Below are positions 1,779 through 61,732 of a stretch of DNA of 64,000 nucleotides, piece by piece. The stretch is from positions 1-64,000 of the forward strand of contig JAVRCJ020000037.1 in NCBI GenBank assembly GCA_034530875.2. The letters are read 5' to 3'. The stretch is from Nostoc sp. DedSLP01. Lineage in GTDB: Bacteria > Cyanobacteriota > Cyanobacteriia > Cyanobacteriales > Nostocaceae. How positions within the stretch are numbered: the first letter of the stretch is position 1; each line of letters begins with the position of its first letter. Position numbers and translations under genes: made by a program. The notes beneath the pieces were generated by a model. That model did no database searches, had not been told where the DNA came from, and saw only the letters and a list, made by a program, of their open reading frames with translations.

Positions 1779-1933
1779 AACCTGAATTTGACTGCTCGTG
1801 TAGTGTCGATTTAATTAGCTGAATAAAAAATCTATAAGAGGTTTTACTACGCAAAACCGTTCCTCTCCGAGTCGCAGAGGGACACCCTTGAACTTTAAGT
1901 TCAAGGGTGGGAGAGGTTCGTCAAATTGGCATT
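1779..1933. mobile_element. Degenerate MITE-like element, related to 46053-46206
   Basis: Shares the core AAAACCGT.CCTCTCCGA...GAGGGACA..CTTGAAC...AGTTCAAG...GGGAGAGGTTCGTC with the 46 kb copy; ends are imperfect inverted repeats. Confidence 0.6.
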
Positions 1934-2637
1934 ATCTTACTTCTGTACTTGCTATTTCTAAAAGAGTTTTCAGTACAGAATCAGGATTAAGGCTGATGGA
2001 ATCAATACCTTGTTGAACTAAAAATTGAGCAAATTCTGGATAATTGCTTGGTGCTTGGCCGCAAATACCAATTTTGCGTTCGTGGTTTTTAACTGTAGCT
2101 ATGGCTTTGGCAATCATTAGCTTCACAGCTTCATTGCGTTCGTCAAATAAATGAGCTACTAATTCTGAATCTCTATCTATAGGAATCCGGTTTGATTACT
2201 GAAATTATTTGTGTAGGTAGGGAGTAGGGAATGGGGAGTAGGGAGTGGGAAAGAAGCCTTGTTTGGGTGTACTGATTTTTTTCAGAAATCAAATATGATT
2301 CCTATACTCCTAATGTTAATTGTGTCAGGTCATTGGAGCCAATTGAGAAGCCATCAAATATTTCACAAAATTCATCTGCCAATTGCACGTTACTAGGCAA
2401 TTCGCACATTACATAAACTTGTAAACCGTTTTCTCCCTGCACATAAGCTGTAGTAGCAAAACCTGTAGGAATTTTGATGCCTTTGGGTACAAGCTGCTGA
2501 ATCATTTCTCCTAGTGAAGCGTTTTTACCACCCACTAGCGGGATATCTGCAATCCCAACTGCATCTAGGGGTAGTACTAGGGCTTGTTGTTTGGTGTTCT
2601 GACTTGATGTCTTTTGAGCAACAAATGTTTCAAGCAT
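1932..2637 (-). pseudogene. ppsA: Phosphoenolpyruvate synthase remnant: internal in-frame deletion plus MITE insertion
   Basis: N-terminal [11 protein letters not shown]...GFATTAY is joined directly to C-terminal [17 protein letters not shown]...[16 protein letters not shown]; after a 125-bp insert the frame continues DRDSELV...GICGQAPS...SISLNPDS. About 192 codons remain. Confidence 0.93.
2180..2304. mobile_element. MITE with TA target duplication inside ppsA
   Basis: Ends TAGGAATCCGGTTTGATT and AATCAAATATGATTCCTA, flanked by TA at 2178-2179 and 2305-2306. Removing the element and one TA restores LGV-DRDS. Contains GGGAGTA heptamers. Confidence 0.9.
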
Positions 2638-2726
2638 GAGAAATTTTCCTTAAATGCATTCTCGCTACTGTTACTCGAGAGGAGTCGGTGTTAGTTTTGT
2701 ACTCCCTCTTGAGTCTCACACTTTTG

Positions 2727-2759
2727 GTTATAGGAAAATAGTTTGAGGAACTTGTGAGG
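2727..2759 (-). promoter_or_regulatory. Putative activator site plus -10 box upstream of ppsA
   Basis: Minus strand reads CCTCACAAGTTCCTCAAA-N9-TATAAC; the same layout occurs at three other promoters in the window. Confidence 0.7.
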
Positions 2760-3096
2760 TGATGACTATTTCTCTATACTGCCCAAGTTTGTAGATTCAC
2801 AATACAATCGATAGGCGTTGCTGATTGGTGGGATGATTTTTATCTCAAGCAGAGACGCAGAGAGAAAGAGGCTTTGGGGATTTTTGTACAGATGGGTAAT
2901 CATAAGTGATTAGCCAAATATGATATAACTACTGTTTTGCCAATAGAAATAATTTTCAAGTCATGCAATTTGAGATTTTAGATTTCTCCTACAATTTCAA
3001 ATCTGAGTTCATGTAATAACCAAGCAAACGTACAATATAAAATTTCTAATTGGCAGAAAAACTGATTTTAAATTACAAGATATTAGGTAATACTAA

Positions 3097-4746
3097 ATGA
3101 TTGATACTCTGATTGCCCAAGCAGCACAATCTACATCAAAAGTACCCCCAGCACCACCGCCCCCAGCTTTACCGACGGTAGCACAAATAACTGCTTTCTT
3201 ATATACATTTGGCGCATCTGCAATTATTTTTTTTGTCATCTATATATTACTGTTTTATGTCCTGCGATCGTTTCTTAGGCGCACAGAAAAAGATACAGCC
3301 CTACTAATTCTTGGGATTTCGCAAATTCCGGCGATCGCAATTTTTTTGTTTGCCAGTCTCAAACTTTCGCTGTTTCAATTAGGTTCAGGAAGAATCGTAG
3401 GTTGGATTGGACAAGGACTCACAGCTTTGTTAATTGCTGCTTTCACTTATTTGGCAAGTATGTTATTTACAGAAGCAGCAGTCGCCTACTTGAAAGACTA
3501 CGCCCGCAAAACTGAAGCTGTGTGGGATGACGTCTTAATTCCACTACTACAAAATTTTATTCCAGTAATTACATATATAATTGGAATTTCTTTATTTTTC
3601 ACTACTCTGGGAGTTGATTTAAGCGGAATTGGTTTAGCAATAGGTAGCATCACCGTAGTTTTAGGATTGGCAGTCAAAGATATTTTAAGCGACTTTTTCA
3701 GCGGCTTAGTATTGCTAGTTGATACACCGTTTAAATTTGGAGATGTCATCTCCATGCCAGATGGTTCTATTGCAATTATTAAACAGATTGGTATTCGAGT
3801 AACGAAACTATATTTGATTAACGAGCATTGCGAAGTATATGTACCGAACACATCCTTGGGAAGTCAAAATATAGTTAATCTCAGTCGCCCTACAACTCAC
3901 TACGCTTATACAATCAAAGTGTCAGTAAGAGTTGATGCTGATGCAGTAGTAGCAACAAAAATTTTACAAGAAATCATCGTCGGACATCCAGATACTTTAG
4001 GTGATATTGATGAAAAACTTGAATGCTTAGATAGTTTTGCTGTATTAAGAGAAGCAGAAGACAATAAATTATCAAAGAAAGAAGCAGGACGGCTGCGTTT
4101 GTTAGTTGAAAAAGATGTGAACGACCAACTGCAAAAACTTGAGCGAGTATTAGAATCTTTTGTACTTGAAATCAAACAGCTAGAAAAGGGGGGATTGAAT
4201 TCAGAAGAACTGAAAAGTATCCAGAAAAACTATCTAGAAATATTAAACTTTGTTGGGCTGGCAGTGATTACGGAACGTCAAGGCAAACGAGTGCGATCGC
4301 ACCTAGAAGAACAAATCGGGAAAGTAACTTTAATTGGCTTGATTCGTCAATGGTATCAAACTTGGTTAAAAGACCCCGATTTAGTGCTTGAAGACCACAA
4401 TATTTTACGAGATGAATGGGAGCATAAGATTGAATTGTTAAAAACAAAAATGAATAAAATATTTCAGAAAATTGCTAATCCTGGAGTAGATGAAACCAGA
4501 TTAGATGACTATTCATTAAAATTTCTTGAATGGTTGCATGAAAATTTTAAAGAGTCTAATACTGCATGGAAAGAACCACAAGTTCAACTAACTGATATCC
4601 AAGGTGCTGGTATGCAATTTTCCGTGAGGTTCTACGTTGATAATATTCAATTAGAACACTGGCGTCGTGGTAACCGCGTTCAAAATGAGGTGCGTCGAGA
4701 AATGGTACGGCGGTTAAGACAAGCTTATATTTACACGCTAGGATGA
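3097..4746 (+). CDS. MscS-family mechanosensitive channel with long C-terminal extension
   Basis: Transmembrane helices, then GLAVKDILSDFFSGLVLLVDTPFKFGDVI...IGIRVT...VPNT. Confidence 0.9.
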   Translation: MIDTLIAQAAQSTSKVPPAPPPPALPTVAQITAFLYTFGASAIIFFVIYILLFYVLRSFLRRTEKDTALLILGISQIPAIAIFLFASLKLSLFQLGSGRIVGWIGQGLTALLIAAFTYLASMLFTEAAVAYLKDYARKTEAVWDDVLIPLLQNFIPVITYIIGISLFFTTLGVDLSGIGLAIGSITVVLGLAVKDILSDFFSGLVLLVDTPFKFGDVISMPDGSIAIIKQIGIRVTKLYLINEHCEVYVPNTSLGSQNIVNLSRPTTHYAYTIKVSVRVDADAVVATKILQEIIVGHPDTLGDIDEKLECLDSFAVLREAEDNKLSKKEAGRLRLLVEKDVNDQLQKLERVLESFVLEIKQLEKGGLNSEELKSIQKNYLEILNFVGLAVITERQGKRVRSHLEEQIGKVTLIGLIRQWYQTWLKDPDLVLEDHNILRDEWEHKIELLKTKMNKIFQKIANPGVDETRLDDYSLKFLEWLHENFKESNTAWKEPQVQLTDIQGAGMQFSVRFYVDNIQLEHWRRGNRVQNEVRREMVRRLRQAYIYTLG

Positions 4747-4776
4747 TGAAATACATGGGGGGATGAGATTTTATGT

Positions 4777-4901: not shown

Positions 4902-5123
4902 TCAATCTTCGCTCCAATCTTCACGGCCTAACAAATCTATAATTTTGTCGCGCAGCAAAAATTCATTTTTTTCTAGTTCGAGTTCTACGCAAACCCACTC
5001 GCGACCGGGAATATATTTACACAAAGCCAAAATTGGCTCGTTCCGACGGATTGCTCCTTTTTTTACCAGTTCCCGCGCTTCATCTTTGATTAGCTCAATG
5101 TCATACTTTACAAGAGTATCCAT
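4902..5123 (-). CDS. DUF4327 family small protein
   Basis: YDIELIKDEARELVKKG...LCKYIPGREWVCVELELEKNEFLLRDKIIDLLGREDWSED matches this cyanobacterial family. Confidence 0.85.
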   Translation of the reverse strand: MDTLVKYDIELIKDEARELVKKGAIRRNEPILALCKYIPGREWVCVELELEKNEFLLRDKIIDLLGREDWSED

Positions 5124-9350: not shown

Positions 9351-9477
9351 TAGGACTCACATTTGATTGCGTGAAAAAAAACAGTACATCCAGACAAGGC
9401 TTCTGTCCCACTCCCTACTCCCCATTCCCTACTCCCTGTCTACACAAATAAATTCTCGAAATCAAACCGGATTCCTA
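9351..9477. mobile_element. MITE, same family as 2180-2304, inverted
   Basis: TAGGACTCACATTTGATT ... AATCAAACCGGATTCCTA; interior resembles the reverse complement of the ppsA insert. Confidence 0.85.
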
Positions 9478-9594
9478 TAGATATAATCCTGAGGTATGAC
9501 AACAAGGCTGGCAGCTTGTGCGATCGCCATTTAGAAACGAGTTCATCAAGCATAATGAAACTCTTGTTAACCATAAGCCATTTCTATTTAGTGT

Positions 9595-10380
9595 ATGTCT
9601 AGCGATCGCGGTTCTATTTTACATCTTTTCATCAAACAAAAACCTCGTTTGCCAATGACAGAAGTTGAGGAAATCAACTTAAAAGTAGGTCATGGTATAG
9701 AGGGAGATATTAATGCTAACTCAATCAGTCCCAGGCAAATTTTGATTGTGAGGAATGAAGATATTGTATATTTTGCCATTCCACCAGGAGAATTACGAGA
9801 AAATATTGTCATAGCAGGGATAAATTTTGAAAATTTTATTCCTGGCTCTTTGATAACTATTGATGGTGATGCCGCTATTCGTTTAACTTTTCATTGCGAA
9901 CCATGCAAGCGCGTAGCTCATTTAGTTGATTCTTTAAAAAGTATCTACTACCAAAGAGGTATTTTAGGTATAGTTATCAATTCCGGAACAATTCGTGTGG
10001 GAAGCAACGTTAAGATTGAAACTGATAAATTTCCAGCATTCTCTGAAAAACCTTACGAACGGTTTCTTGATTTTATAGTAAAAGTCCCATCGGGAAACGT
10101 AGTAACCTATCAACAGATAATTACAGCCATTGGAGTAGATAATAGCTATCTTAGGGCTATTCCCATATATTTGAAGAAAACATCTGTTGATGATTATCCA
10201 ATTCACAGAATATTAGATTCTCAAGGCTATTTAATAAAATATGCACCCCATCAAAAGAGTAAACTAGAATCTGAAGGTATTGAAATTTTAAATTCTCCAG
10301 ATTTGCTGAATAAAGAAAATAGATACTTTGTAAATACTGAGAAATATTTGTATGAAAATCAAACAATTTATTTGAATTAA
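9595..10380 (+). CDS. MOSC domain fused to MGMT/alkyltransferase-like DNA-binding domain
   Basis: GIEGD, RQI, GELRENIV, CEPC, RGILG (MOSC), then VPSGNVVTYQQI...PIHRI (MGMT-like, with Cys replaced). Confidence 0.8.
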   Translation: MSSDRGSILHLFIKQKPRLPMTEVEEINLKVGHGIEGDINANSISPRQILIVRNEDIVYFAIPPGELRENIVIAGINFENFIPGSLITIDGDAAIRLTFHCEPCKRVAHLVDSLKSIYYQRGILGIVINSGTIRVGSNVKIETDKFPAFSEKPYERFLDFIVKVPSGNVVTYQQIITAIGVDNSYLRAIPIYLKKTSVDDYPIHRILDSQGYLIKYAPHQKSKLESEGIEILNSPDLLNKENRYFVNTEKYLYENQTIYLN

Positions 10381-33758: not shown

Positions 33759-34115
33759 TCATTCAAAATTCAAAACTATATCTAACGCAGCACGAATAGT
33801 TTGCCAATATTCATCTTCTAAAATTCCTATTAACCCTAATACCCGACTATTATCAACACTGCGAATTTGTGCAACATCAATATAACGGTCTTGGTCTAAA
33901 CCATTGTTAGTTGTAGCTTTAACATTTACTACATAAGGAGCATTTTTCGTTCCAGGTCGAAATGGCATCACAATAGTTAAAGAACCATATTGATTCATCA
34001 CATCATTTTGAACTATTAGACAAGAACGGGTTTTTTGGGCTTCTGCACCGACTGTAGGATCGAGTTTTATCCAGCGAATTTCCCCACGTCGATAAGCTAA
34101 AATACCGTTTGGCAT
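33759..34115 (-). CDS. mazF: MazF/PemK family toxin
   Basis: RRGEIRWIKLDPTVGAEAQKTRSCLIVQND...QIRSVDNSR. Confidence 0.9.
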   Translation of the reverse strand: MPNGILAYRRGEIRWIKLDPTVGAEAQKTRSCLIVQNDVMNQYGSLTIVMPFRPGTKNAPYVVNVKATTNNGLDQDRYIDVAQIRSVDNSRVLGLIGILEDEYWQTIRAALDIVLNFE

Positions 34116-45918: not shown

Positions 45919-46052
45919 CGTAGATGGGACTGGTATTTAGTTATCAGAAGATAATAATTAGTTTAAGAGAAAGTTAAGACAAATTTTCTACGAGCAGCTG
46001 CACTAGCGGCACATCAGCGACTGCCTCCTGCCTCCTTCAATGGCTTTGGATT

Positions 46053-46206
46053 AACGTGAATTCGACGGTTTATATAGTGTCCGTCTAATTAGCCAAATAA
46101 AAAACCTCTCCCTGGTTTTACGTAGTAAAACCGTCCCTCTCCGATTCGGAGAGGGACAGACTTGAACACTAGTTCAAGACAGGGAGAGGTTCGTCGAATT
46201 CACATT
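46053..46206. mobile_element. MITE-like element
   Basis: AACGTGAATTCGACG ... CGTCGAATTCACATT inverted ends; related to 1779-1933. Confidence 0.75.
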
Positions 46207-46209
46207 GGA

Positions 46210-48678: not shown

Positions 48679-48688
48679 GACTTTCCCC

Positions 48689-50845: not shown

Positions 50846-51849
50846 TTACTGATTCCTTTAGCTACTAACACCGTTACATCGTCTCGTTCTCGGTTAAAGT
50901 CTCGGTATAGCACGCCTGCAATCAGGCTGGGATGTTTTTGAGCCAAACCGGGATAGCGATCGAGCCTCCATTTAGAGCCTAATCCATCGGAATGCATAAT
51001 TAACATTCCATTGGCATACCAAGGATAGCTAAATTCTTGAATTTTGCGAAGTTCGTGGCCGACGATACCGTTGTAAGATAGCAGATGATGTTGTTCGGTA
51101 AATGAGAAGATGCTGGCAGCGATGTTGCCAATGCCGGCAAACCGGACGCATAGTTGTTCCGAGTCGATTTCGGCAATGGCAAGTGCGGCTCCCCGGGTAT
51201 TTCGTAATGCGGCGTGGGCAGCTTGTACGATCGCCGCCGGAGAATAATGATAATGTTCTTGAAAGGTTCTCACGGCTTCTAAAGCAGCACTGGCAGCCGC
51301 AGATCCATGCCCCAAGCCATCGGCTACAAGTAGCAGACTACGGCCGCCCTCGATTCGATGCGCCCAGGCATCCCCAGAGACATCCTCCTCCAATTTGGAC
51401 AAACACACAACCCCAATTTCTAAGGTATTTTCTCCCGGCTGTGGTATCGAGTACGACCACAAGCGAGCCAACAGGGCTGTCCCTTGATTGGGAATCGAGT
51501 AAATTTCAAATACATCGGAGAGGCGACGAATTGCCCCTAATCCATTGCCTAAGGTTCCGGCTGTGGAAAAGCCATCTTGCAAGCATTCATCAACATCGAA
51601 CATCCCTTGTCCTTTATCCAAGGACAAAACCTCAATCCCCACAGCCGAATCGTCCTGAAGCGCTCTGAGCAATAACACGCCGCCATGAGTGTGCTGTATC
51701 AAATTGCTGGCGATTTCTGTTACCACAATGCCGACTTTACCGCGTTTGATTTCCTCAAACCCGAGTTTAGTTGCCAAAGCGATCGCTTTTCGTCTGGCTT
51801 CTCCGGTCTGACTTGGTTCGGTAATAGTAAGGGCAACAGATTCTCTCAT
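50842..51849 (-). CDS. RsbT-like HATPase fused to SpoIIE/PP2C phosphatase (RsbX-like)
   Basis: TEIASNL...DKGQG...GNGLG, then SGDAW, VADGLGHG, HSDGL, DDVTVL. Confidence 0.9.
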   Translation of the reverse strand: MRESVALTITEPSQTGEARRKAIALATKLGFEEIKRGKVGIVVTEIASNLIQHTHGGVLLLRALQDDSAVGIEVLSLDKGQGMFDVDECLQDGFSTAGTLGNGLGAIRRLSDVFEIYSIPNQGTALLARLWSYSIPQPGENTLEIGVVCLSKLEEDVSGDAWAHRIEGGRSLLLVADGLGHGSAAASAALEAVRTFQEHYHYSPAAIVQAAHAALRNTRGAALAIAEIDSEQLCVRFAGIGNIAASIFSFTEQHHLLSYNGIVGHELRKIQEFSYPWYANGMLIMHSDGLGSKWRLDRYPGLAQKHPSLIAGVLYRDFNRERDDVTVLVAKGISK

Positions 51850-51850
51850 T

Positions 51851-52255
51851 TTATTTCCATCGTACAATTGTTACGCGCGTACCTTTTCCCTCTACAGACT
51901 GAATTTCAAACTCGCTCGCCAGTCGTTTGGCACCGCCTAGCCCCATACCTAAGCCGCTGCCTGTGGTGAAACCATCTTTGAGTGCCAGTTCGATATCGGG
52001 AATTCCCGGCCCCTGGTCTTCAAACGTCAGCCTGAGTCCGCGCCGTCCCTCTTGATGAAGCGTTTCTAATTTTGCTGTGCCGCCTCCGCCATAGTCTAGG
52101 GTATTGCGGGCTAGTTCGCTAGCGGCGGTGACGATTTTTGTTTGGTCTACTAAGCTAAAACCAATCTCTACAGCCAACTGACGGACGGTTTGCCGGACTA
52201 AGACGACATCTGTAGAAGATTTAATGTCGAGCGTTTCAGTCCTCTGGATTGTCAT
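51851..52255 (-). CDS. rsbT: Stressosome serine/threonine kinase
   Basis: VTAASELARNTLDYGGGG, FEDQGPGIPDIELALKDGFTTGSGLGMGLGGAKRL. Confidence 0.93.
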   Translation of the reverse strand: MTIQRTETLDIKSSTDVVLVRQTVRQLAVEIGFSLVDQTKIVTAASELARNTLDYGGGGTAKLETLHQEGRRGLRLTFEDQGPGIPDIELALKDGFTTGSGLGMGLGGAKRLASEFEIQSVEGKGTRVTIVRWK

Positions 52256-52649
52256 CTGCACGGGATTTAGTGACAGCGATTTGATTTGTAGTTTGATTGA
52301 GTGACGATCGCAACAGTGCCATACCCTTTTCGATATTCAGGGCAGTGCAAATTCCCGTCAGCGTCAGTCCCAATTCCACTAGAGTAATTGCCACCGCAGG
52401 CTGCATTCCCACAACAACCGTTTGAGCGCCGAGAATGTGTGACATTCTGGCAATGTTGGCTAAAATCCGAGCGATGAAAGAATCAACAATCTCTAATGCA
52501 GAAATATCGATGAGGAGACCTAGAGCGTGAGTTTGAGTGATGCGGTTGGTTAGCTCGTCCTGTAGAGTTATGGCCAGGCGATCGTGCATATCTACTTGGA
52601 TGGTTACAAGCAGGAAATCACCCATTTGCAGTATGGGAATGCGTTCCAT
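52236..52649 (-). CDS. rsbS: Stressosome STAS protein
   Basis: IPILQMGDFLLVTIQ, IDISALEIVDSF, VGMQPAVAITLVELG. Confidence 0.93.
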   Translation of the reverse strand: MERIPILQMGDFLLVTIQVDMHDRLAITLQDELTNRITQTHALGLLIDISALEIVDSFIARILANIARMSHILGAQTVVVGMQPAVAITLVELGLTLTGICTALNIEKGMALLRSSLNQTTNQIAVTKSRADDNPED

Positions 52650-52666
52650 TGGTTCCTCCCGTCCGC

Positions 52667-53518
52667 CTATTGAGGTTGAGAGCGAGTAATCGTTGCTCCC
52701 AAACGTTTTAAAGCTGTGAGAAAGGCATCGGCTAACGTTGCCTTTGTTGTCACACCAGTCAAATCAATACCAAGATAAACGATTGTTTGGGCAATTTGAG
52801 GACGAATTCCGCTGATAATACAATCAGCTCCCATGAGACGAGCTGCAGTAACGGTTTTGAGCAGATGTTGAGCCGTGAGGGTATCAACCGTGGGAACTCC
52901 GGTAATGTCAATGATGGCAACTTCTGACTCGGTTTCCACAATTTTTTGTAATAAGGACTCCATAACTACTTGAGTGCGGGCGCTATCTAGAGTGCCGATA
53001 ATCGGCAATGCCAAAATTCCCTTCCAGAGTTTAACTACTGGGGTGGACAGCTCCATTAACTCTTCCTGCTGCCGCACAATCATCTGTTCCCGCGTCTTCT
53101 GATACACTTCCATTGTCAGCAATCCCAGCCGATCCAGTAAAGTTGTAGCTAGCCAGATATCTTCACCCAATTGAACCGGGTCTTGCAATTCCTGACGCAG
53201 ACGGTTAAAAAGGGGTTGTTTCAAGGAAAAGACAAATGTAGCAGTTTCCGAGGGCGTGAAACCTTTTTGCGATCGCGATCGAGAAACGCTCGTTAGCATC
53301 TCCCGTACATGCTGCCAAGTTGATGCTTGAATATTGGTTAAGTTGCCCTGTGCAACCGCACTGCGAAACAAGCCAAGGAATTCTCGGCACTCCTCCTTTA
53401 ACTCAGCTTCCTTAATTAAACCTTTGCGAATATTGACACTAGCTAACTCCTGAGTCCACTCTGAGAGCAAGTCTGCCTCGAAGGTTTCCAATATCTTTGA
53501 TATCTTACTGTCACTCAT
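52667..53518 (-). CDS. rsbR: Stressosome sensor with N-terminal globin-like domain and STAS domain
   Basis: ELSTPVVKLW, LPIIGTLDSAR, IDITGVPTVDT, SGIRPQIAQT. Confidence 0.93.
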   Translation of the reverse strand: MSDSKISKILETFEADLLSEWTQELASVNIRKGLIKEAELKEECREFLGLFRSAVAQGNLTNIQASTWQHVREMLTSVSRSRSQKGFTPSETATFVFSLKQPLFNRLRQELQDPVQLGEDIWLATTLLDRLGLLTMEVYQKTREQMIVRQQEELMELSTPVVKLWKGILALPIIGTLDSARTQVVMESLLQKIVETESEVAIIDITGVPTVDTLTAQHLLKTVTAARLMGADCIISGIRPQIAQTIVYLGIDLTGVTTKATLADAFLTALKRLGATITRSQPQ

Positions 53519-53738
53519 GTTTCTTGGTAAAGGCAACTGCTTTCATTAGCACAGAATTCAGTGTATGACGATTCTGTGTAATGTGAAAGGCGATCGAGTG
53601 AAGGAGGTAGGGGCGGGGCAGAGGGGGCAGGTTTTTCAGATTCAGTCTGAAAAAGCCGATTTTTTCGTTCTGAAATCTTTCTTTGCGTCGCCGTGTCCCC
53701 GCCCCCCCGCGTCGATCGAAAGCCAAGCGTGTTGCTGT

Positions 53739-53771
53739 CCTCACAAGTTTCTCAAATTGTTTTTTTATGAT
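53739..53771 (+). promoter_or_regulatory. Putative activator site plus -10 box upstream of the hox cluster
   Basis: CCTCACAAGTTTCTCAAA-N9-TATGAT; the 18-mer differs by one base from the ppsA site. Confidence 0.72.
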
Positions 53772-53821
53772 TTCAACTGCGAGACGCGGAACATCCTGAA
53801 GTTCTACAAAAGGCTCAAACA

Positions 53822-54037
53822 ATGAATTCAGCATCTGCTGTTAAAACTCACAACACAGCAAAAGATAAGCGCTTTAAAATGCTAGATGCAACTATCAAAC
53901 GCTACCAGTATCAACAGGATGCACTGATTGAGATATTGCATAAAGCGCAGTCTGCACCAAATCCAGTATTTAGTACTTTGCGTTATTTCCGAGATGAGTA
54001 TTTGGCTTTGATTCGAGAAACTGCCATATCTACATAG
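53822..54037 (+). pseudogene. hoxE/hoxF: hoxE 5' end fused in frame to hoxF 3' end
   Basis: [29 protein letters not shown] (HoxE N-terminus) is joined to [17 protein letters not shown] (HoxF/NuoF C-terminus). Confidence 0.9.
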
Positions 54038-54047
54038 GTGAACCAAA

Positions 54048-54878
54048 ATGTTTACCAAAATTTTACTTGTCATTGGTGCATTAGTGGCGATCGCATTTAT
54101 CGCTTTAGTCATCATTAAGATAAAGAACGAACAAGAAGTAGAGAGAATTTGGCGAACGCTTGAAGTAACGCCAACAGGCGATCGTTTTAGTGAGGATATG
54201 GTTGCAGACTTACCTCTTCCTGTGCGGCGCTACTTCTTGCACAGCATTGCACTGGGAACTCCTCTGGCTTCCTCTGTCAGCTTGGAAATGAGTGGCAGTT
54301 TTCGCTTGGCAGAGGATAAACCGTGGATACCAATGCGAGCAAAACAAATTATTTCAGCAGCGAAAGGATTTGTTTGGAAACCGATTATTGGTAGCGGTTT
54401 GTTTCAATTTATGGGCACTGATTACTACGCAAACAAATCTGGTGGAATGCGCTTTTCAATTTGGGGGCTGATTTCTGTGGTCAATGCTCGCAATTTTAAT
54501 ATTACTCGCTCTAGCATTGGACGATTTGCAGGAGAATTTTTCTGGTTACCTTCTGCTTTGCTACCCCAACGCAATGTAACTTGGAAAGCAATAGATGAAA
54601 GAACTATCGAAGCTAGTTTCAAAATTGATGACGAACCGATAACCTTAACACTAGTTACAGACCTTGACGGCAAACCGCTAAAGGTTTCTTTCCCGCGTTG
54701 GGGAAAATATACTGAAGATAATACTCATACTTACATTCCCTTTGGTGGAGAATTTACAGAAGAAAAAACATTTAGCGGCTATACAATTCCCTCCCAAGTT
54801 TGTGCGGGATGGCGAATTGGGACAGAGAATTATTTCGAGTTCTATCGAGCAGAAATTCAGCAAGCTGAGTTTCGTTGA
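54048..54878 (+). CDS. DUF6544-like membrane-anchored protein
   Basis: N-terminal transmembrane helix, DLPLPVRRYF, GFVW, WLPSALLP, GYTIPS. Confidence 0.75.
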   Translation: MFTKILLVIGALVAIAFIALVIIKIKNEQEVERIWRTLEVTPTGDRFSEDMVADLPLPVRRYFLHSIALGTPLASSVSLEMSGSFRLAEDKPWIPMRAKQIISAAKGFVWKPIIGSGLFQFMGTDYYANKSGGMRFSIWGLISVVNARNFNITRSSIGRFAGEFFWLPSALLPQRNVTWKAIDERTIEASFKIDDEPITLTLVTDLDGKPLKVSFPRWGKYTEDNTHTYIPFGGEFTEEKTFSGYTIPSQVCAGWRIGTENYFEFYRAEIQQAEFR

Positions 54879-54881
54879 GTA

Positions 54882-55016
54882 ATATCAAGTTCGGATGATT
54901 AGTTACGATTGCAGTCCTCGCGTTACCCCTCCCCAACCCTCCCCTTGGCAAGGGGAGGGTGCCGTAAGGCGGGTGGGGTGTTTCCGGATTTATAAGTGAT
55001 TGAGCAAACTTGATAT
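54882..55016. mobile_element. MITE, near-identical to 23036-23170
   Basis: ATATCAAGTT ... AACTTGATAT ends and shared interior. Confidence 0.88.
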
Positions 55017-55048: not shown

Positions 55049-55792
55049 ATGGCAGTCAAAACTTTAACAATCAACGAGCAATTAATTAGCGCCCGTGAGG
55101 AGAAAACCATTTTCCAAGCAGCGCAAGAGGCAGGAATTCACATTCCCACTTTGTGTTATTTAGAAGGAGTTGGAGATGTTGGAGCTTGTCGGCTTTGTTT
55201 GGTGGAAATTGTTGGCAGTAATAAACTGCAACCTGCTTGTGTGACGAAAGTTGCTGAAGGTATGGAAGTGCAAACAAATAGCGATCGCCTCAACAAATAT
55301 CGCTGCACAATTATAGAAATGCTGTTTGCTGAAGGCAATCATATTTGCTCAGTGTGCGTTGCCAATGGAAATTGCGAATTGCAAGATTTGGCAATTGAAA
55401 CAGGTATGGAACATGTGCGGTTGGATTATCATTTTCCCAATCGCAAAGTCGATGTTTCTCACCATCGCTTTGGCATTGACCACAACCGTTGTGTTCTTTG
55501 TACTCGTTGCGTGCGTGTTTGTGACGAAATCGAAGGAGCGCACACTTGGGATATGGCGGGTAGAGGCACGAATTCCCACGTCATTACCGATTTAAATCAA
55601 CCTTGGGGAACCTCAGATACTTGTACTTCCTGCGGCAAATGCGTTAATGCTTGCCCAACTGGTGCGCTTTTTTACCAAGGCTCTAGCGTCGGCGAAATGA
55701 AACGCGTAGACGCGAAGCGGCTTGTCCCAGGACATCGCGCCAAACTTGATTTTTTGGTTACAGCGAGAGAAAAGCAACAATGGCTGATTTAG
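55049..55792 (+). CDS. hoxU: Bidirectional hydrogenase diaphorase subunit U
   Basis: [56 protein letters not shown]. Confidence 0.95.
55707..55733. repeat. 27-bp SDR5-like insertion in a HIP1 site inside hoxU
   Basis: GCG-[TAGACGCGAAGCGGCTTGTCCCAGGAC]-ATCGC, in frame. Confidence 0.85.
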
Positions 55793-56005: not shown

Positions 56006-56530
56006 ATGTTACGCCGCATCTTAAAACTCTTCTGGTGGCTTTTATTACTGGGAATATTAACAACATATATATACCTGGGTTTAGCCAGCTTCACATCTAA
56101 ACCAGCGATCGCTGCTGTCATTCAATTAGAAGAATCACCACAAGAAATAATTTATAGATCGCAGCAAAGATTGAACGACCAATGGGGCAATCATTGGCAA
56201 GTTGTTTTGTTTAAGCGGATTCATTCTAATAGTAATAAAATATCTTCTATCAATCTCCGCTTGGTAGGATTTCCTGGTTCTCAAGAACTTCCCCATCCCT
56301 TACCATTGCAGATTACTACCGATACAGGTAAAGTATTAACGGCTCCCGATATTTTTCTAGATGAAGCACCAGCACCAACCATTGCTGAGTATGACTTCAA
56401 TAATGTTTTGTCTCAATTACCAAATCAAGAATTATCGATTGGTATCCCTATAGGTAAAAAACAGTTCATCAATATTCCAATCCCTGAATACGTTGTGCAA
56501 GAATGGCAAGAAATTGCATTAAAATCTTGA
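56006..56530 (+). CDS. DUF3122 family protein
   Basis: YRSQQRLND..G..WQVVLFKR, LRLVGFPG, HPLPL. Confidence 0.8.
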   Translation: MLRRILKLFWWLLLLGILTTYIYLGLASFTSKPAIAAVIQLEESPQEIIYRSQQRLNDQWGNHWQVVLFKRIHSNSNKISSINLRLVGFPGSQELPHPLPLQITTDTGKVLTAPDIFLDEAPAPTIAEYDFNNVLSQLPNQELSIGIPIGKKQFINIPIPEYVVQEWQEIALKS

Positions 56531-56580: not shown

Positions 56581-57126
56581 ATGGCTCGTTTAAAATTTGC
56601 GACAGTTTGGCTAGGTGGCTGTTCTGGGTGCCACATGTCTTTTCTCGATTTAGATGAATGGCTGATTGATTTAGCGCAACAAGTAGATTTAGTTTTTAGT
56701 CCCTTCGTTGATGCTAAAAAATATCCGCAAGGTGTGGATGTGGTATTAGTGGAGGGTGCAATTGCCAATGAAGAACATCTAGAAATGATACAGATAGTGA
56801 GAGAGCGATCGCACATTCTTGTCTCTTTTGGTGATTGTGCTGTCACTGGTAATGTTACTGCTTTACGCAATCCTTTAGGTAGTACTGAACCTGTTCTACA
56901 ACGTTGTTACATCGAAGCAGCTGAAATCCACGGCACAATTCCCCATGAACCTGGTATTGTACCAACCTTACTAGATAAGGTAGTACCAGTACATACGGTA
57001 GTACCAGTTGATATTTATTTACCAGGGTGTCCCCCTGATGCAACTCGGATTAAAGCAGTATTAGAGCCACTGTTAAGAGGAGAAAAACCTTTGCTCGAAG
57101 GACGTGAATTTATCAAGTTTGGTTAA
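56581..57126 (+). CDS. hoxY: Bidirectional hydrogenase small subunit
   Basis: WLGGCSGCHMSFLDLDE, VEGA, GDCAVTGNV, PGCPP. Confidence 0.95.
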   Translation: MARLKFATVWLGGCSGCHMSFLDLDEWLIDLAQQVDLVFSPFVDAKKYPQGVDVVLVEGAIANEEHLEMIQIVRERSHILVSFGDCAVTGNVTALRNPLGSTEPVLQRCYIEAAEIHGTIPHEPGIVPTLLDKVVPVHTVVPVDIYLPGCPPDATRIKAVLEPLLRGEKPLLEGREFIKFG

Positions 57127-57193: not shown

Positions 57194-57328
57194 CAATAGG
57201 TTCGGTTAACGTGTTTATTCCTCGAAGATCCCCCCAACCCCCCGATAAATTGGGGGACTTACAACCCTCTTTTACCCCCTTTTTAAGGGGGTCGCCGTAG
57301 GCGGGGGGATCTTAACCGAACCGTATTG
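57194..57328. mobile_element. Nezha-like MITE inside a GGGGACT heptamer tract
   Basis: Nearly the same sequence as 24865-25018; eroded flanks AGGGATTGGG and AGGGACTGCG. Confidence 0.85.
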
Positions 57329-57472
57329 AGGGACTGCGGACTGGAGATTAGGGACTGGGTACTAAGAAAGCTCTTTATTTTCTAGTCAATACTGCACACT
57401 CTTATCATCCATTCTCTATTTCCTCTTCCCTATCTCCCCAGTCTCCAGTCACCAGTCGCCAATCCCCAAATT

Positions 57473-57931
57473 ATGGTTATGGCAGTTAATTATCAGCAAA
57501 GAATTATTGCTCTTTGGACAGTATTTCTATTAGGAACGCTGTTTCATACACAACTAGGTTTAATGCCAATTTTTCACGGCTTATCTGTTATAGAATCTCA
57601 AAAAGCCACAAACATCAATGATATTTCTGGAATTATGTGGTTGATGTTGGGCTTTTTTGTAATACCGATACTAGCAATTATTGCTACAGATTTTACTGAT
57701 TCAAAGCGTTATCGAATCATTCATTTTGGGTTAACCATCTTTTACAGCATCATCAACTTATTACATATAATTGCAGATTTATTTGTCCAGCCAATTCTCT
57801 GGTATCAAATAGCCTTGATGGTCTTGTTATTCCTGATAGGTTTATTATTAAACGTTACTGCTTTTAAATGGATACGGTTGCATCATTTAGTGAATAAATC
57901 GCACAAAAATTTAGAACAATCAAGCATTTAG
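57473..57931 (+). CDS. Hypothetical four-helix membrane protein
   Basis: Four hydrophobic segments with intramembrane His residues. Confidence 0.75.
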   Translation: MVMAVNYQQRIIALWTVFLLGTLFHTQLGLMPIFHGLSVIESQKATNINDISGIMWLMLGFFVIPILAIIATDFTDSKRYRIIHFGLTIFYSIINLLHIIADLFVQPILWYQIALMVLLFLIGLLLNVTAFKWIRLHHLVNKSHKNLEQSSI

Positions 57932-58011
57932 GTATTAAGTAAATTAATATCTATCGAGAATTAATTATTCTCAGATTACCAAATAAATTCAAACCGTATA
58001 ATGTCAACATC

Positions 58012-58650
58012 ATGAGAATTTTGGAGAACATTATGTTAAAAGCATCTGATATTATGACTAAAGATGTTGCTACAATTCGCAGTTCAGCAACCATAGCTGA
58101 AGCAGTCAAACTTTTAAAAGCAAGGGACTGGAAAGCACTGATTGTAGAACGCTCCCACGAACAGGATGCCTACGGGATTATTAGCGAAAGCGATATTGTA
58201 TATAAAGTGATTGCTTATGGTAAAGATCCCTTTAAGGTGCGTGTCTATGAAGTAATGACCAAGCCTTGTATAGTCATTAATCCTGACCTTGGCTTAGAAT
58301 ATGTAGCACGATTATTTGCTGACTATAATTTGCACAGAGCGCCTGTTATTCAGGGCAAGCTAATAGGTATCATTTCTCTAGCTGATATTTTAGCTAATAG
58401 TAACTTTCTTGAACAGCCACATAATATCCTGTTAGAACAACAACTTCAGGACGAAATCAAAAAAGCTCGTGCGGTTTGTACTCAAAAAGGTATTCATTCA
58501 GAACAGTGTGCTGCTGCTTGGGACGTAGTTGAAGAATTGCAAGCCGAAATAGCGCATCAACGAGCAGAGAAAGTTGAGAAAACAGCTTTTGAAGAATACT
58601 GCGATGAATTTCCAGAAGCTAAAGGATTTTATAACACTTGGTGTAGCTAA
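58012..58650 (+). CDS. CBS-CP12 domain protein
   Basis: CBS pair, then CAAAWDVVEELQAE...FEEYCDEFPEA. Confidence 0.9.
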   Translation: MRILENIMLKASDIMTKDVATIRSSATIAEAVKLLKARDWKALIVERSHEQDAYGIISESDIVYKVIAYGKDPFKVRVYEVMTKPCIVINPDLGLEYVARLFADYNLHRAPVIQGKLIGIISLADILANSNFLEQPHNILLEQQLQDEIKKARAVCTQKGIHSEQCAAAWDVVEELQAEIAHQRAEKVEKTAFEEYCDEFPEAKGFYNTWCS

Positions 58651-58718
58651 CAACCTCAAGAATATATTTATTAAGTTGCTGGGTTAGATAGGGAACAGTT
58701 GCAGAGAAAGATAAAACT

Positions 58719-59087
58719 ATGACGATAAATTTCATAAATTCACAAGAGACAAAAATTGCATCTGAAAAATTGGAAAGTTTCCATTTAACAGACGGGCAAA
58801 TTGGTGAAATATCTTTAATTAATGGAACATTATATGTTCGTTTTCAAACTGATGATGAAAAAGATTTGACGCTTGTCTTTAAAGATGTAGCTGGAGTTGA
58901 GATGTTCAATATTCAGAATGTCGAAGTGAGTAAATGGACAGTTAGCTTAAACGATCCTTTCATCGAACGAAGTAGAAAACTATCAGAAAAACATACTGAA
59001 AATCTTGTTTGCTATGCTTTTTGGTCGCCTTGGCTGGAAGAACCTCTGATGCGTATTTTAGCTGGGGATTTTGAAATCAAAAGCTGA
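58719..59087 (+). CDS. Hypothetical acidic protein
   Basis: 122-aa ATG ORF co-oriented within the hox cluster. Confidence 0.65.
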   Translation: MTINFINSQETKIASEKLESFHLTDGQIGEISLINGTLYVRFQTDDEKDLTLVFKDVAGVEMFNIQNVEVSKWTVSLNDPFIERSRKLSEKHTENLVCYAFWSPWLEEPLMRILAGDFEIKS

Positions 59088-59118
59088 TAAGTAGAAGGCA
59101 AGATACAGCAAAATTATT

Positions 59119-59478
59119 ATGAAAAAAGTAATCATCGACCCAGTTAGCCGAATTGAAGGACATGCCAAAATCAGCATTTATCTCGACAATACTGGACAAG
59201 TGACTGATGCTCGTTTTTATGTCACAGAATTTCGCGGATTTGAAAAGTTTTGTGAAGGTCGGCCGCTGTGGGAAATGCCGGGAATTACGGCGCGGATTTG
59301 TCGAATTTGTCCGGTGAGTCATTTGTTAGCATCAGCGAAGGCAGGCGATCGCATTCTTGCCGTTACAATTCCTAAAGCAGCTGAAAAACTACGCCGTCTG
59401 ATGAATTTGGGTCAAATGCCTTTACATATTCAATTAGTTGGGACAGATGGGAACATTCTCAATGAGGTTTGGCGATAG
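59119..59478 (+). pseudogene. hoxH: NiFe hydrogenase large subunit with in-frame internal deletion
   Basis: [31 protein letters not shown]...LMNLGQ joined to the C-terminal peptide [20 protein letters not shown]; the DPCxxC motif is absent. Confidence 0.93.
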
Positions 59479-59585
59479 TAATCTATTCTGAATTCTGAAT
59501 TCTTACTTGAAAAGTTCTCTCCTAACATTTAACCTTCATTCTTCTGTAATTTGCATTCCAAAACGCAAATCTAGCGAGGGCGATA

Positions 59586-60476
59586 ATGCCTAAAGTAGAA
59601 GAACAGAAGCATGAAAGCGTGAATACAAAACTCCTCATTTCTCCTCAAGAACTCACGTCCCTGTTAGCCGAAAAATCCTCACTATCTGTCATTATTGATA
59701 CGCGAAGTCGAGAAGAATATGCTATTTCTCATATTCCCAACTCCATAAATATTAGAGATTTTTTCACTTATCTTTTAGAGAATTCCTCCCCAGCGGGATT
59801 AAAGGAATTGCAAGAATATTTTGCAGAAATTATGAGTAGGGTAGGAATATCCGGTACCGAACATTTAATTGTTTATGAAGATGCTCTAAATAGAGGTTAC
59901 GGCCAATCTTGTCGAGCAGCTTTTTTATTAAAGTATTTAGGTTGTCCTCAAGTATCTATTTTACATGGAGGATATAGAGCATGGCTCAAGGCAGGATTAC
60001 CTACTAACGATGAAGCCCCCAAGCGTGAAAGTAGTATATTTAGATTGCATCCTAACGCTAACATCATGGTGACTACTACTGAGATGTTGCAAGCAATTGA
60101 TAACTCAGCAATTATTAAATTAGATGTGCGCGATCGCGATGAATGGCTTGGCTTGAGTTCTTCTCCCTACAATCCTGATTTTTGCCCTCGCAAAGGTAGA
60201 ATCCCTAATGCAGTATGGTTAGAATGGCATCGTCTGATGAATTGCGATTCCGAAATTCCCATGTTGCGATCGCCAGATGAAATTCGAGAAATTTGTCAGT
60301 CAGTAGGTATTACTTCTGAGTCTGTTGTGTATATTTACTGCTTTAAAGGTTCTAGGGCTGCTAATACATTAATAGCCCTCGAACAAGCAGGAATTTCTGC
60401 TAAAAATTATTTTGGCTCTTGGAATGAATGGTCTCGCGATTTTTCATTACCTATTGATAGCACAGTAATTTCATGA
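59586..60476 (+). CDS. Tandem rhodanese sulfurtransferase
   Basis: IIDTR..EEY..SHIP, LHGG..AW, LDVR..DEW, GRIP, YCFKGSRA, YFGSWNEW. Confidence 0.9.
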   Translation: MPKVEEQKHESVNTKLLISPQELTSLLAEKSSLSVIIDTRSREEYAISHIPNSINIRDFFTYLLENSSPAGLKELQEYFAEIMSRVGISGTEHLIVYEDALNRGYGQSCRAAFLLKYLGCPQVSILHGGYRAWLKAGLPTNDEAPKRESSIFRLHPNANIMVTTTEMLQAIDNSAIIKLDVRDRDEWLGLSSSPYNPDFCPRKGRIPNAVWLEWHRLMNCDSEIPMLRSPDEIREICQSVGITSESVVYIYCFKGSRAANTLIALEQAGISAKNYFGSWNEWSRDFSLPIDSTVIS

Positions 60477-60613
60477 GCAATATTAATAGATTAATTATGC
60501 TGGATTTATCTTAAATTCTGACTTATGACTTCTGAATGCTGAATTATTACCTTTAATCATAAATGCCAATAATTTGAGAAGATTGTGACAAATACTTCAA
60601 CCCTTCTCTATTT

Positions 60614-60646
60614 CCTCACAACTTCTTCAAGTTTTTTGCTTAACTT
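60614..60646 (+). promoter_or_regulatory. Putative activator site plus -10 box upstream of hoxW-acs
   Basis: CCTCACAACTTCTTCAAG-N9-TAACTT; an inverted related site lies at 60573-60590. Confidence 0.62.
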
Positions 60647-60673
60647 GAAAGTAGTCTTAGACAGCTAAAAATT

Positions 60674-61123
60674 ATGAATTGTAATGTCATAGCTATTGGT
60701 TATGGTAATGAATTGCGTAGTGATGATGGTATTGGTCAACAAGTAGCTAAAACGTTACAGCTATCAAACGTAAAATCTCTTCCTGTCCAACAACTAACTC
60801 CCGAACTTGCCCAAAATTTAGCCCATGCAGATTTGGCAATTTTTATTGATGCTTGTATTAATTACCAAAGTTTTGAGGTGCAAGTAGAAGCGCTTTCACC
60901 TACCTCTTTCAAGACGATCGCCGGACATATAGGGGAACCGCGATCGCTTCTGGCTTTGACTCAAGCAATTTATGGCTATTGTCCGCCGTCTTGGTGGATT
61001 AAAGTACCAGGAGTAAACTTTGAATTAGGCTGTAGCTTATCGCCAATTGCGGAAACCGGAGTGGCGATCGCTTTACAAAAAATTACCCAAATTATAGACG
61101 AAAATTTGAGCTTGTTTATTTAA
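60674..61123 (+). CDS. hoxW: Hydrogenase maturation protease
   Basis: IGYGNELRSDDGIG, QLTPELA, IFIDA; located in the hox cluster. Confidence 0.85.
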   Translation: MNCNVIAIGYGNELRSDDGIGQQVAKTLQLSNVKSLPVQQLTPELAQNLAHADLAIFIDACINYQSFEVQVEALSPTSFKTIAGHIGEPRSLLALTQAIYGYCPPSWWIKVPGVNFELGCSLSPIAETGVAIALQKITQIIDENLSLFI

Positions 61124-61168
61124 AATTTCCCTAGCTGACTATATTCCCAGCAAAGGTAACAACAACTA

Positions 61169-61732
61169 ATGCAAAAGCCTATTCAGCAATCTAGCGATCG
61201 GGCGTATGATATTTTGCGAACTGAGAAAGTTAATCCCCTCAATGCTATCTTTGCCCCCAAAAGTGTTGCCGTAATTGGTGCTAGTGAAAAGGCTGATAGT
61301 GTTGGACGCACTCTGTTATGGAACTTAATTAGCAATCCTTTTGGTGGAACAATTTTCCCTGTCAATCCTAAGCGCCACAGCATCCTGAGAATCAAAGCCT
61401 ACCCGACTATTTTTGATGTCCCGGAATTAGTGGATTTAGCAGTTGGTCGGTTAAGTAAAATACATAGTATAAATGCAGCGGAATTTGCTATTGTAGTGAG
61501 CGATCGCTGTCAGTGCCAAGGTATAGGAACGGAGTTATTACAAAGGTTACTGCAAGTGAGTCGAGATGAGCAATTAAACACAATTACTGCTGATATCTTA
61601 GTTGACAATTATGGTATGCAAAAAGTTTGTGAAGAACTTGGTTTTCGCATCCAACGCACAGACGATCCGACTGTAGTCAAAGCTCAAATCGAAGTCAAAA
61701 AATCCCCCTCAACTGCTGAATTTTCGGACTAG
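61169..61732 (+). pseudogene. Acetate-CoA ligase (ADP-forming)/GNAT fusion (Pat/YfiQ-like) with in-frame internal deletion
   Basis: AIFAPKSVAVIGASE...FPVNPK...VDLAV (CoA-binding start) joined to GRLSK...AEFAIVVSD..Q.QGIGTELL...NYGMQKVCEELGF (GNAT end). Confidence 0.88.

What the first reader, a model, noticed from the sequence alone, without database searches (positions are those of the whole stretch)
1932..61732. Four anaerobic-metabolism loci hollowed out the same way: cores removed, termini rejoined in frame
Seen: ppsA, hoxE-hoxF, hoxH and the acetate-CoA ligase/GNAT gene each keep their start and stop regions joined in frame, with no frameshift or nonsense change in the retained parts apart from a MITE in ppsA. 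Neighbouring genes look intact. Known: full-length homologues are roughly 800, 165+535, 480 and 900 aa, and PpsA, Hox and acetate-CoA ligase are associated with dark or anoxic metabolism. Inference: the simplest reading is recent loss of a whole pathway by repeated microhomology-mediated deletion. Less likely alternatives are a targeted or programmed excision process, or assembly error. In-frame joins are easier to spot, so some ascertainment bias applies.
Basis: partly seen in the sequence, partly recalled or inferred. Interest (0 to 1): 0.82.

Follow-up and report, generated by a model that had tools for sequence, protein, structure and literature searches.

The report
Hydrogenase gene island caught mid-collapse
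This cyanobacterium has lost the middles of four genes from one cluster for living without oxygen, most likely through ordinary, recent deletions after the cluster stopped being needed; related species are losing the same cluster the same way, and the neat in-frame joins are probably a known side effect plus chance, not a programmed process.

Summary
The four junctions are real. Against intact relatives, ppsA lacks 1,860 nt, hoxH 1,086 nt, the CoA-ligase/GNAT gene (pat) 2,259 nt, and hoxE is fused to hoxF. All four are in frame. Independent contigs cross three joins unchanged, and no core is elsewhere in the assembly. They are not four separate loci: relatives carry them in one ~25-kb hox/ppsA/pfkA/pat/nifJ island. 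Three more relics of that island lie on other contigs and break the pattern: an out-of-frame P-type ATPase deletion, a truncated pfkA and a frameshifted nifJ. All 7 island genes over 1 kb are broken, against 1 of 9 smaller ones. No hollowed gene was found among 418 control ORFs. Sixteen congeners show 24 independent island deletions, only 9 in frame. Long repeats in these genes are mostly in frame anyway, a published bias, so 4 of 5 in frame has P about 0.14. Remnants still show purifying-level pN/pS, so the loss is very recent. Core-genome ppsA, nifJ and pfk copies are intact. Verdict: early-stage deletional pseudogenisation. Selection for removal remains possible; programmed excision is unsupported.

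The parts
1932..2637 (-). ppsA (PEP synthase) remnant: N-terminal 65 codons joined in frame to the last ~127 codons; 1,860 nt deleted; split by a MITE
   Evidence: PRK06464 hits on both halves
2442..2442 (-). ppsA deletion junction, 1 nt shared
2180..2304 (.). 125-bp MITE with short terminal inverted repeats and TA target duplication (2178-2179, 2305-2306); introduces a stop into the ppsA remnant
   Evidence: 51 full-length copies among 74 hits in the assembly
4902..5123 (-). DUF4327 gene, intact; neighbour of ppsA in the ancestral island
53822..54037 (+). hoxE(1-43)::hoxF(last ~23 codons) in-frame fusion; 1.9-2.2 kb deleted
   Evidence: crossed by contigs of X1-X3
53948..53950 (+). hoxE-hoxF junction, 2-3 nt shared
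54048..54878 (+). DUF6544/DUF6920 gene, intact passenger
55049..55792 (+). hoxU, full length, orphaned
   Evidence: (over PRK07569 cut-off)
56006..56530 (+). DUF3122 gene, intact passenger
56581..57126 (+). hoxY, full length, orphaned
57473..57931 (+). 152-aa hydrophobic ORF without family, intact passenger
58012..58650 (+). CBS-CP12 gene, intact passenger
58719..59087 (+). 122-aa ORF without family, intact passenger
59119..59478 (+). hoxH remnant: codons 1-99 joined in frame to the last ~20; 1,086 nt deleted; carries a private G62R change inside the first nickel-binding motif
   Evidence: crossed by contigs of X1-X3
59410..59417 (+). hoxH junction, 8-nt microhomology
59586..60476 (+). rhodanese-like sulfurtransferase, intact; kept in 87 of 127 genomes of the genus
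60674..61123 (+). hoxW maturation protease, full length, orphaned
61169..61732 (+). pat (acetate-CoA ligase/GNAT) remnant: codons 1-92 joined in frame to codons ~846-end; 2,259 nt deleted; both domains are partial
   Evidence: crossed by contigs of X1-X3
61436..61444 (+). pat junction, microhomology of up to 9 nt

Best explanation
These are four deletion scars in one ancestral hox/ppsA/pfkA/pat/nifJ gene island that is likely decaying because selection on it recently relaxed.

Shown: each scar removes 1.1-2.3 kb; the island is also broken in its P-type ATPase, pfkA and nifJ; every gene over 1 kb is hit and the small ones are spared; sister species show the same erosion at other breakpoints.

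Inferred: (1) kilobase deletions arise by Ku-independent, microhomology-tolerant end joining or slippage (1-9 nt shared); (2) they hit large genes first because these are the large targets; (3) they stay inside single genes, and so keep the termini, because still-conserved passenger genes (DUF6544, DUF3122, CBS-CP12, rhodanese, pdxJ) are interleaved with the dispensable ones; (4) they are often in frame because short repeats in coding DNA are mostly spaced by multiples of three, plus chance and easier detection; (5) the fused ORFs are non-functional.
For: Linkage: ppsA lies within about 15 kb of hoxH in G054 and G031, with hox and pat following. ppsA, P-type ATPase, pat and hoxE are contiguous in G048 and G005 and linked to hox in G131 and G035.

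Other relics in the own assembly: P-type ATPase C7:54080-54368 (1,010-1,013 nt deletion, out of frame, both termini lost); pfkA C12:27431-27535 (first 35 codons only); nifJ C25:25883-26498 (first ~190 codons, 4-nt duplication).

Size: 7 of 7 island genes over 1 kb broken versus 1 of 9 under 0.9 kb (Fisher P 0.0014).

Background: of 602 ORFs of at least 250 aa in 79 x 20 kb of G046, 418 match the own assembly. The 4 with an internal gap are two inteins, one G046-specific ProRS insertion and one repeat artefact, so 0 are hollowed.

Genus: 30 of 126 congeners match the hoxH termini, 18 as full genes and 12 as relics. 24 distinct island junctions in 16 genomes, 9 in frame (binomial versus 1/3, P 0.67; Fisher versus 4 of 5, P 0.14).

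Frame null: repeats of at least 7 nt in donor ppsA, hoxH, pat, hoxF, P-type ATPase and nifJ are 52-62% in frame; P(at least 4 of 5) is about 0.14. Danneels et al. 2018 (PMC6054270; abstract, passages and section 20 read) report a 3n deletion bias in pseudogenes with 1-12 nt microhomologies and mostly no Ku/LigD. Ku was found in 0 of 5 genomes here.

Recency: private pN/pS is 0.15 in the remnants versus 0.13 in relatives, and 0.19 versus 0.18 for hoxU/Y/W. One frameshift and no nonsense codon in 4,363 retained bp, against 9 such lesions in 1,745 bp in G057. No recombinase-like motif is shared by the four joins, and none of the six breakpoints tested in ppsA, hoxH and pat lies at a HIP1 site.
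Against: Kilobase deletions (5, plus at least 2 truncations) outnumber small lesions (1 frameshift, 1 MITE), whereas neutral indel sizes follow a power law (PMC6054270 passage). The contrast with older relics is 5:1 versus 17:29 (P 0.07), which leaves room for selection favouring removal.

4 of 4 in frame inside the window has P about 0.05 on its own. Two joins have only 1-3 shared nt, so 'microhomology-mediated' is not shown for them.

The 37 split or partial control ORFs were not resolved one by one, and some may be truncation relics. The control covers 1.58 of 8.9 Mb of one relative's chromosome. Donors are only about 90% identical, so microhomology lengths are approximate. 3 of the 9 in-frame calls in other genomes rest on weak alignments. 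The pN/pS counts are small.
Confidence: 0.74

Rival explanations
1. Selection-driven purge: after a change of habitat (the runs holding this DNA are labelled root metagenome), large deletions of costly Fe-S/Ni enzymes were favoured and swept, one per large gene, sparing useful neighbours; frame is incidental.
For: Every large gene was hit while almost no point damage accumulated. Koskiniemi et al. 2012 (PMC3386194, abstract read) found about 25% of Salmonella deletions raised fitness. The cycad isolate Nostoc punctiforme lacks Hox (PMC2661322 passages).
Against: Target size alone predicts the pattern. The large-versus-small contrast is not significant (P 0.07). hoxU, hoxY and hoxW, which would also cost, are untouched. 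A cycad symbiont (PCC 7422) and Nostoc azollae are listed with HoxH (PMC2974642 Table 2 passage), so symbiosis does not force loss. Runs X1-X3 may be the source sample, and the habitats of the G genomes are not given.
Confidence: 0.18
2. Selection for in-frame, non-polar joins: only deletions that keep translation running were tolerated, to protect downstream genes (DUF6544 after hoxF, rhodanese after hoxH, pdxJ after pat), or the mini-proteins have a new use.
For: All three joins inside the hox operon are in frame and have same-strand downstream genes. A hollowed pat ORF also occurs in Scytonema (P0001, 308 aa, pat 1-171 plus 775-927).
Against: No Rho over the family cut-off in this genome, so classical polarity is weak (inference). 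ppsA has no downstream partner and is broken by a MITE. The same genes carry out-of-frame deletions in other species upstream of the same rhodanese gene (G106, G105, G135). The pat remnant holds only half of each domain. HoxH has a G62R change in its metal-binding motif.
Confidence: 0.05
3. Programmed or targeted excision removes the gene cores in some cell type, by analogy with heterocyst excision elements (recalled knowledge).
For: Only the clean look of the joins. The genome's hupL is interrupted by a ~6-kb insert, so rearrangement of a hydrogenase gene is plausible in this lineage; its recombinase was not confirmed.
Against: No core sequence anywhere in the 8.57-Mb assembly. Contigs of three runs run unbranched through three joins at 186-474x, equal to flanks. 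The joins share no motif and 1-9 nt of homology. Known excisions restore genes rather than destroy them (recalled). Breakpoints differ between species.
Confidence: 0.015
4. Assembly error collapsed the genes.
For: The ppsA join was not read-checked; X1-X3 may be the source sample.
Against: Shared sequence of 1-9 nt is far below any assembly k-mer (inference). A separate assembler gives the same three joins. The cores are absent from all 113 contigs.
Confidence: 0.015

Closest known systems
3n-biased, microhomology-flanked deletions in bacterial pseudogenes (Danneels et al. 2018, PMC6054270; abstract, passages and section 20 read)
   Same: Deletions in genes under relaxed selection; 1-12 nt microhomologies at a part of the joins (171 of 396 there, 2 of 4 clear here); Ku absent; excess of frame-keeping sizes linked to repeat spacing in coding DNA.
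   Different: That study deals with small deletions in reduced symbiont genomes; here the deletions are 1.1-2.3 kb, confined to one island of an 8.6-Mb genome that is not reduced.
Alternative end joining in E. coli (Chayot et al. 2010, seen only as cited in passages of PMC4872102)
   Same: Large deletions joined at microhomologies without Ku/LigD.
   Different: Not tested in this organism; replication slippage would leave the same scars.
Loss of the bidirectional hydrogenase in Nostoc punctiforme ATCC 29133 / PCC 73102 (PMC2661322 passages; PMC2974642 Table 2 passage)
   Same: End state: uptake hydrogenase, hyp genes and one nifJ kept, Hox gone.
   Different: Here the loss is caught in progress, with breakpoints, orphaned hoxU/Y/W and relics of the linked ppsA, pfkA, pat, nifJ and P-type ATPase.
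Cyanobacterial hoxEFUYH(W) clusters near nifJ (Puggioni et al. 2016, PMC5186783 section 6 read; Barz et al. 2010, PMC2974642 passages)
   Same: Gene order of the clustered type (their group 2); association of Hox with PFOR and fermentation.
   Different: In the parts read, neither describes the wider island with ppsA, pfkA, pat and a P-type ATPase, nor its deletion relics.
Heterocyst excision elements (nifD, fdxN, hupL; XisA/XisF/XisC) - recalled, no paper read on them
   Same: DNA removed from within a gene with an in-frame join.
   Different: Those remove an inserted element at a recombinase site and restore a gene in one cell type; here native coding cores are gone from the whole assembly and no site is shared.

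Membership tests
Deletion-derived pseudogenes under relaxed selection | Essential domains missing relative to intact orthologues | tested here: met
Deletion-derived pseudogenes under relaxed selection | Further disabling lesions in the same genes or pathway | tested here: met
   MITE in ppsA, 4-nt duplication in nifJ, out-of-frame P-type ATPase, G62R in HoxH
Deletion-derived pseudogenes under relaxed selection | Raised dN/dS in the retained parts | tested here: inconclusive
   0.15 versus 0.13: not raised; fits very recent loss but does not itself show relaxation
Deletion-derived pseudogenes under relaxed selection | No functional product | not testable with these tools
   needs proteomics or enzyme assay
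Microhomology-mediated (alternative end-joining type) deletions | Short direct repeat at both ancestral breakpoints, one copy kept | tested here: inconclusive
   met for hoxH (8 nt) and pat (up to 9 nt); only 1-3 nt for ppsA and hoxE-F
Microhomology-mediated (alternative end-joining type) deletions | Ku-dependent NHEJ absent | tested here: met
   PF02735 in 0 of 5 genomes
Microhomology-mediated (alternative end-joining type) deletions | Dependence on resection and LigA after a double-strand break | not testable with these tools
   needs genetics
Programmed heterocyst-type excision | Unexcised form present in vegetative DNA | tested here: not met
   no cores in assembly; unbranched contigs over three joins; ppsA join not read-checked
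Programmed heterocyst-type excision | Conserved recombination site at the ends | tested here: not met
   no shared motif; breakpoints vary between species
Programmed heterocyst-type excision | Recombinase encoded in the excised DNA | tested here: not met
   the missing DNA is native coding sequence in donors
Inteins | In-frame segment with splicing motifs, absent from a functional allele | tested here: not met
   missing segments are catalytic domains; true inteins were recognised in the control set

The most novel reading that the evidence does not exclude
A root-associated cyanobacterium has just purged its whole hydrogen-fermentation island by positively selected, gene-by-gene kilobase deletions that arrived faster than point mutations and spared every interleaved neighbour. 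The genus would then be a natural series of at least a dozen parallel, datable losses in which to test whether selection, rather than drift, drives gene loss on entering plant symbiosis.
Probability: 0.2. Interest if true: 0.55.

Novelty: new member of a known kind. Interest (0 to 1): 0.3.

Why it matters
Nostoc strains without the bidirectional hydrogenase are long known, but only as an end state. This genome shows the first steps: which genes go first, where they break, and that the loss covers a linked ppsA-pfkA-pat-nifJ island. I found no description of such relics in four literature searches (open-access library only). It is a clean natural example for the drift-versus-selection question in bacterial gene loss, and a warning that annotation would call hoxU, hoxY and the fused ORFs functional. 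It is not a new mechanism.

Tried and rejected
Programmed excision and misassembly: rejected.

HIP1-site recombination as the cause: none of the six breakpoints tested in ppsA, hoxH and pat lies at a HIP1 site. One junction in another genome (G005) does sit on HIP1.

A test of reads against an intact relative, to look for minority full-length copies and to see the ppsA join, could not be run; this stays unchecked. An exact search for the ppsA join in metagenome contigs found 0 matches, which is no evidence either way because records near the own genome may be left out. A look-up of the remnant proteins in protein clusters could not be made. No RNA holder was listed. Run X4 (share 0.12) gave only short low-depth pieces and no junction.

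pfl was found in 0 of 5 genomes, so it offers no test. The Fe-ADH family gave no difference between own and relatives. ldh was not searched.

The first pN/pS value for remnants (0.43) was a misalignment across the pat join and was replaced by the split analysis. One search printed 33 junction rows: 6 own (5 distinct) and 27 others, of which 3 duplicates or shared events were dropped to give 24.

The pdxJ tree (30 of 127 genomes, one gene) puts the own genome beside G015, G055 and G077 (97/93), which have no hoxH match. It suggests but does not prove independent losses.

Earlier-findings look-ups gave nothing on this island. No structure was predicted: both domains of the pat remnant are halves, so a fold would not decide anything. 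Supplements of the papers were not read; Puggioni's supplementary tables on incomplete hox sets may bear on novelty.


Full report
Setting. The window is G000:C37:1-64000 of an 8.57-Mb assembly in 113 contigs, 99.8% complete. The three runs that hold the DNA in full are labelled root metagenome, belong to one study and may be the source sample.

Observation. All four joins exist. Alignment to intact relatives about 90% identical places them exactly. ppsA lacks 1,860 nt with 1 nt shared at 2442. hoxE codon 43 is joined to the last ~23 codons of hoxF, with 1.9-2.2 kb missing and 2-3 nt shared. hoxH lacks 1,086 nt with an 8-nt repeat. pat lacks 2,259 nt with a repeat of up to 9 nt. All four are in frame. 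Gene identities pass NCBIfam cut-offs in the donors for PpsA, HoxE and PFOR; the pat donor scores just under the acetate-CoA ligase alpha cut-off and carries CoA-binding, ATP-grasp and GNAT domains. A 125-bp MITE with a TA duplication breaks the ppsA remnant; 51 full-length copies occur among 74 hits in the assembly.

Not an artefact. Logan contigs of X1, X2 and X3 cross the hoxE-F join (53000-54936) and the hoxH and pat joins (57300-62500) with 0 to 2 differences, at depths equal to the flanks. An alternative path of 1-2 kb at appreciable abundance would be expected to break such contigs (inference). Protein and DNA searches of the assembly with donor cores find only a distant ppsA paralogue and short repeat-like hits. 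The ppsA join has no read check.

One island, not four loci. In G054 and G031 the order is ppsA, DUF4327, P-type ATPase, pfkA, hoxE, F, U, DUF3122, Y, small genes, H, rhodanese, W, pat, and in G031 nifJ follows, all within about 25 kb. G048, G005, G131 and G035 also link ppsA to hox; in G046, G044 and G043 ppsA lies on another contig or far away. In the own genome about 48 kb of unrelated genes separate ppsA from hoxE, and three more island relics lie on other contigs. The P-type ATPase relic (C7) has lost both termini and carries an out-of-frame 1,010-1,013 nt deletion. pfkA (C12) keeps 35 codons. nifJ (C25) keeps about 190 codons with a 4-nt duplication. So 4 of 7 lesioned units fit the 'termini rejoined in frame' picture, and they are the ones visible in this window. 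Seven of 7 genes over 1 kb are broken against 1 of 9 under 0.9 kb (P 0.0014).

Specificity. I sampled 79 windows of 20 kb evenly along the G046 chromosome. Of 602 ORFs of at least 250 aa, 184 have no match in the own assembly, 376 match at full length, 37 are split or partial (not resolved singly), 1 is a repeat artefact and 4 show an internal gap. Those four are two inteins, an insertion in G046 ProRS (the own ProRS is 604 aa) and a repeat artefact. A DNA-level scan of 872 kb of unique alignment gave the same three in-gene cases. Hollowing is therefore confined to the island at this sampling. Core-genome copies are intact: ppsA (C24) and nifJ (C39) without stops, pfk, ackA, hypF; hupL is present with an insert. 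pfl was found in none of 5 genomes. The functions lost without a found substitute are Hox and the pat ligase.

The genus does the same. The hoxH termini match 30 of 126 congeners, 18 as whole genes and 12 as relics, mostly beside the rhodanese gene, which 87 of 127 genomes keep. Mapping relics to donor coding sequences gave 24 distinct junctions in 16 genomes after dropping 3 duplicate or shared rows; 9 are in frame, three of them on weak alignments. That does not differ from one third (P 0.67) nor from the own 4 of 5 (P 0.14). None of them shares a breakpoint with the own genome. A one-gene tree of 30 genomes places the own genome beside three species with no hoxH match. A hollowed pat ORF also exists in Scytonema (P0001).

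Why in frame. In the donor genes, exact repeats of at least 7 nt spaced 300 nt or more apart are 52-62% in frame, against 34% for 1 nt. Using junction-specific values, 4 of 4 has P about 0.05 and at least 4 of 5 about 0.14, before allowing for the window having been picked for this pattern. Danneels et al. 2018 (PMC6054270; abstract, passages, section 20) found a 3n bias in pseudogene deletions, microhomologies of 1-12 nt in 171 of 396, Ku/LigD absent in 6 of 8 genomes, and microhomologies more likely at 3n spacing. Ku was found in 0 of 5 genomes here. Large microhomology-joined deletions without Ku are reported for E. coli (passages in PMC4872102). No Rho passes the family cut-off, which weakens an anti-polarity argument.

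Timing. Substitutions private to the own lineage give pN/pS 0.15 in the remnants (relatives 0.13) and 0.19 in hoxU/Y/W (relatives 0.18), with pS 0.11-0.15. My estimate from these counts is that the genes were free of selection for only a few percent of the branch, at most about a tenth. The retained 4,363 bp carry one frameshift and no nonsense codon; G057 has 9 such lesions in 1,745 bp and G059 4 in 906 bp. HoxH has a private G62R change in the first metal-binding motif, which Puggioni et al. describe as highly conserved (PMC5186783 section 6).

What remains odd. Five kilobase deletions and at least two truncations came with almost no small lesions. The contrast with older relics (5:1 versus 17:29) has P 0.07, and lesions inside deleted cores are invisible, so it is not proof. 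It is the reason to keep selection-driven removal (PMC3386194 abstract) at about 0.18. A link to symbiosis is open: N. punctiforme from cycad roots lacks Hox, but another cycad symbiont and N. azollae are listed with HoxH, and the passages searched in a paper on genomic changes in symbiotic Nostoc do not mention hox (PMC5913679).

Verdict. Real, recent, island-wide deletional decay; a new and unusually fresh example of a known process. Relaxed selection 0.74, selected purge 0.18, selection on frame 0.05, programmed excision and misassembly about 0.015 each. Searches of the open-access library showed no paper on such relics; searches supplied the comparators. Interest 0.3.

Noticed in passing
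window 44188-53536, minus strand: Complete-looking RsbR-RsbS-RsbT-RsbX stressosome-type cluster followed by two hybrid histidine kinases and a sulfate permease, divergent from hoxE.
   Followed up: no
window 2180-2304 and near 9351-9479: A 125-bp TA-targeting MITE family with 51 full-length copies in the assembly, 6 at 95% identity or more, so probably recently active; a second copy lies in this window.
   Followed up: partly
G000:C13:105906-113367 (partly L262): hupL is interrupted by a ~6-kb insert with three ORFs; G044 is also split, while G054, G046 and G031 are uninterrupted. The first 378 aa of the 492-aa ORF gave no Pfam hit.
   Followed up: partly
L068:6934-8202 (G035): In-frame pfkA::ppsA fusion made by a deletion that removed the P-type ATPase between them, while hox is intact.
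   Followed up: partly
L086:6853-7369 (G131): One pat copy hollowed by two deletions beside hoxW while a second, divergent pat copy is intact; two pat and ppsA lineages (about 70% identical) exist in the genus.
   Followed up: partly
L080:5731-8949 (G089): nifJ with a 396-nt in-frame internal deletion next to an intact hox cluster.
   Followed up: no
L083 near 10800 (G005): A second, relic hox locus in a genome that also has an intact one; its DUF6544-hoxH junction sits on a HIP1 site.
   Followed up: no
L136:7100-9247, L163:18200-19954, L126:12126-14195 (G046): Inteins in RtcB and in a family-4 uracil-DNA glycosylase (with a LAGLIDADG domain), and an 83-aa insertion in ProRS; all absent from the own genome.
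   Followed up: partly
window 59586-60476: The rhodanese gene outlives the island: present in 87 of 127 genomes against 18 with whole hoxH, so it marks former hox sites.
   Followed up: partly
protein P0001 (Scytonema sp. NUACC26) and P0011: Other hollowed pat ORFs, both breaking near residue 171; P0001 keeps a whole CoA-binding and a whole GNAT domain and could be functional.
   Followed up: partly
window 9595-10380: ORF joining a methylguanine-methyltransferase DNA-binding domain and a MOSC domain.
   Followed up: no
window 32968-34115: DUF433 gene pair and a PemK/MazF-like gene, probable bacterial toxin-antitoxin modules.
   Followed up: no
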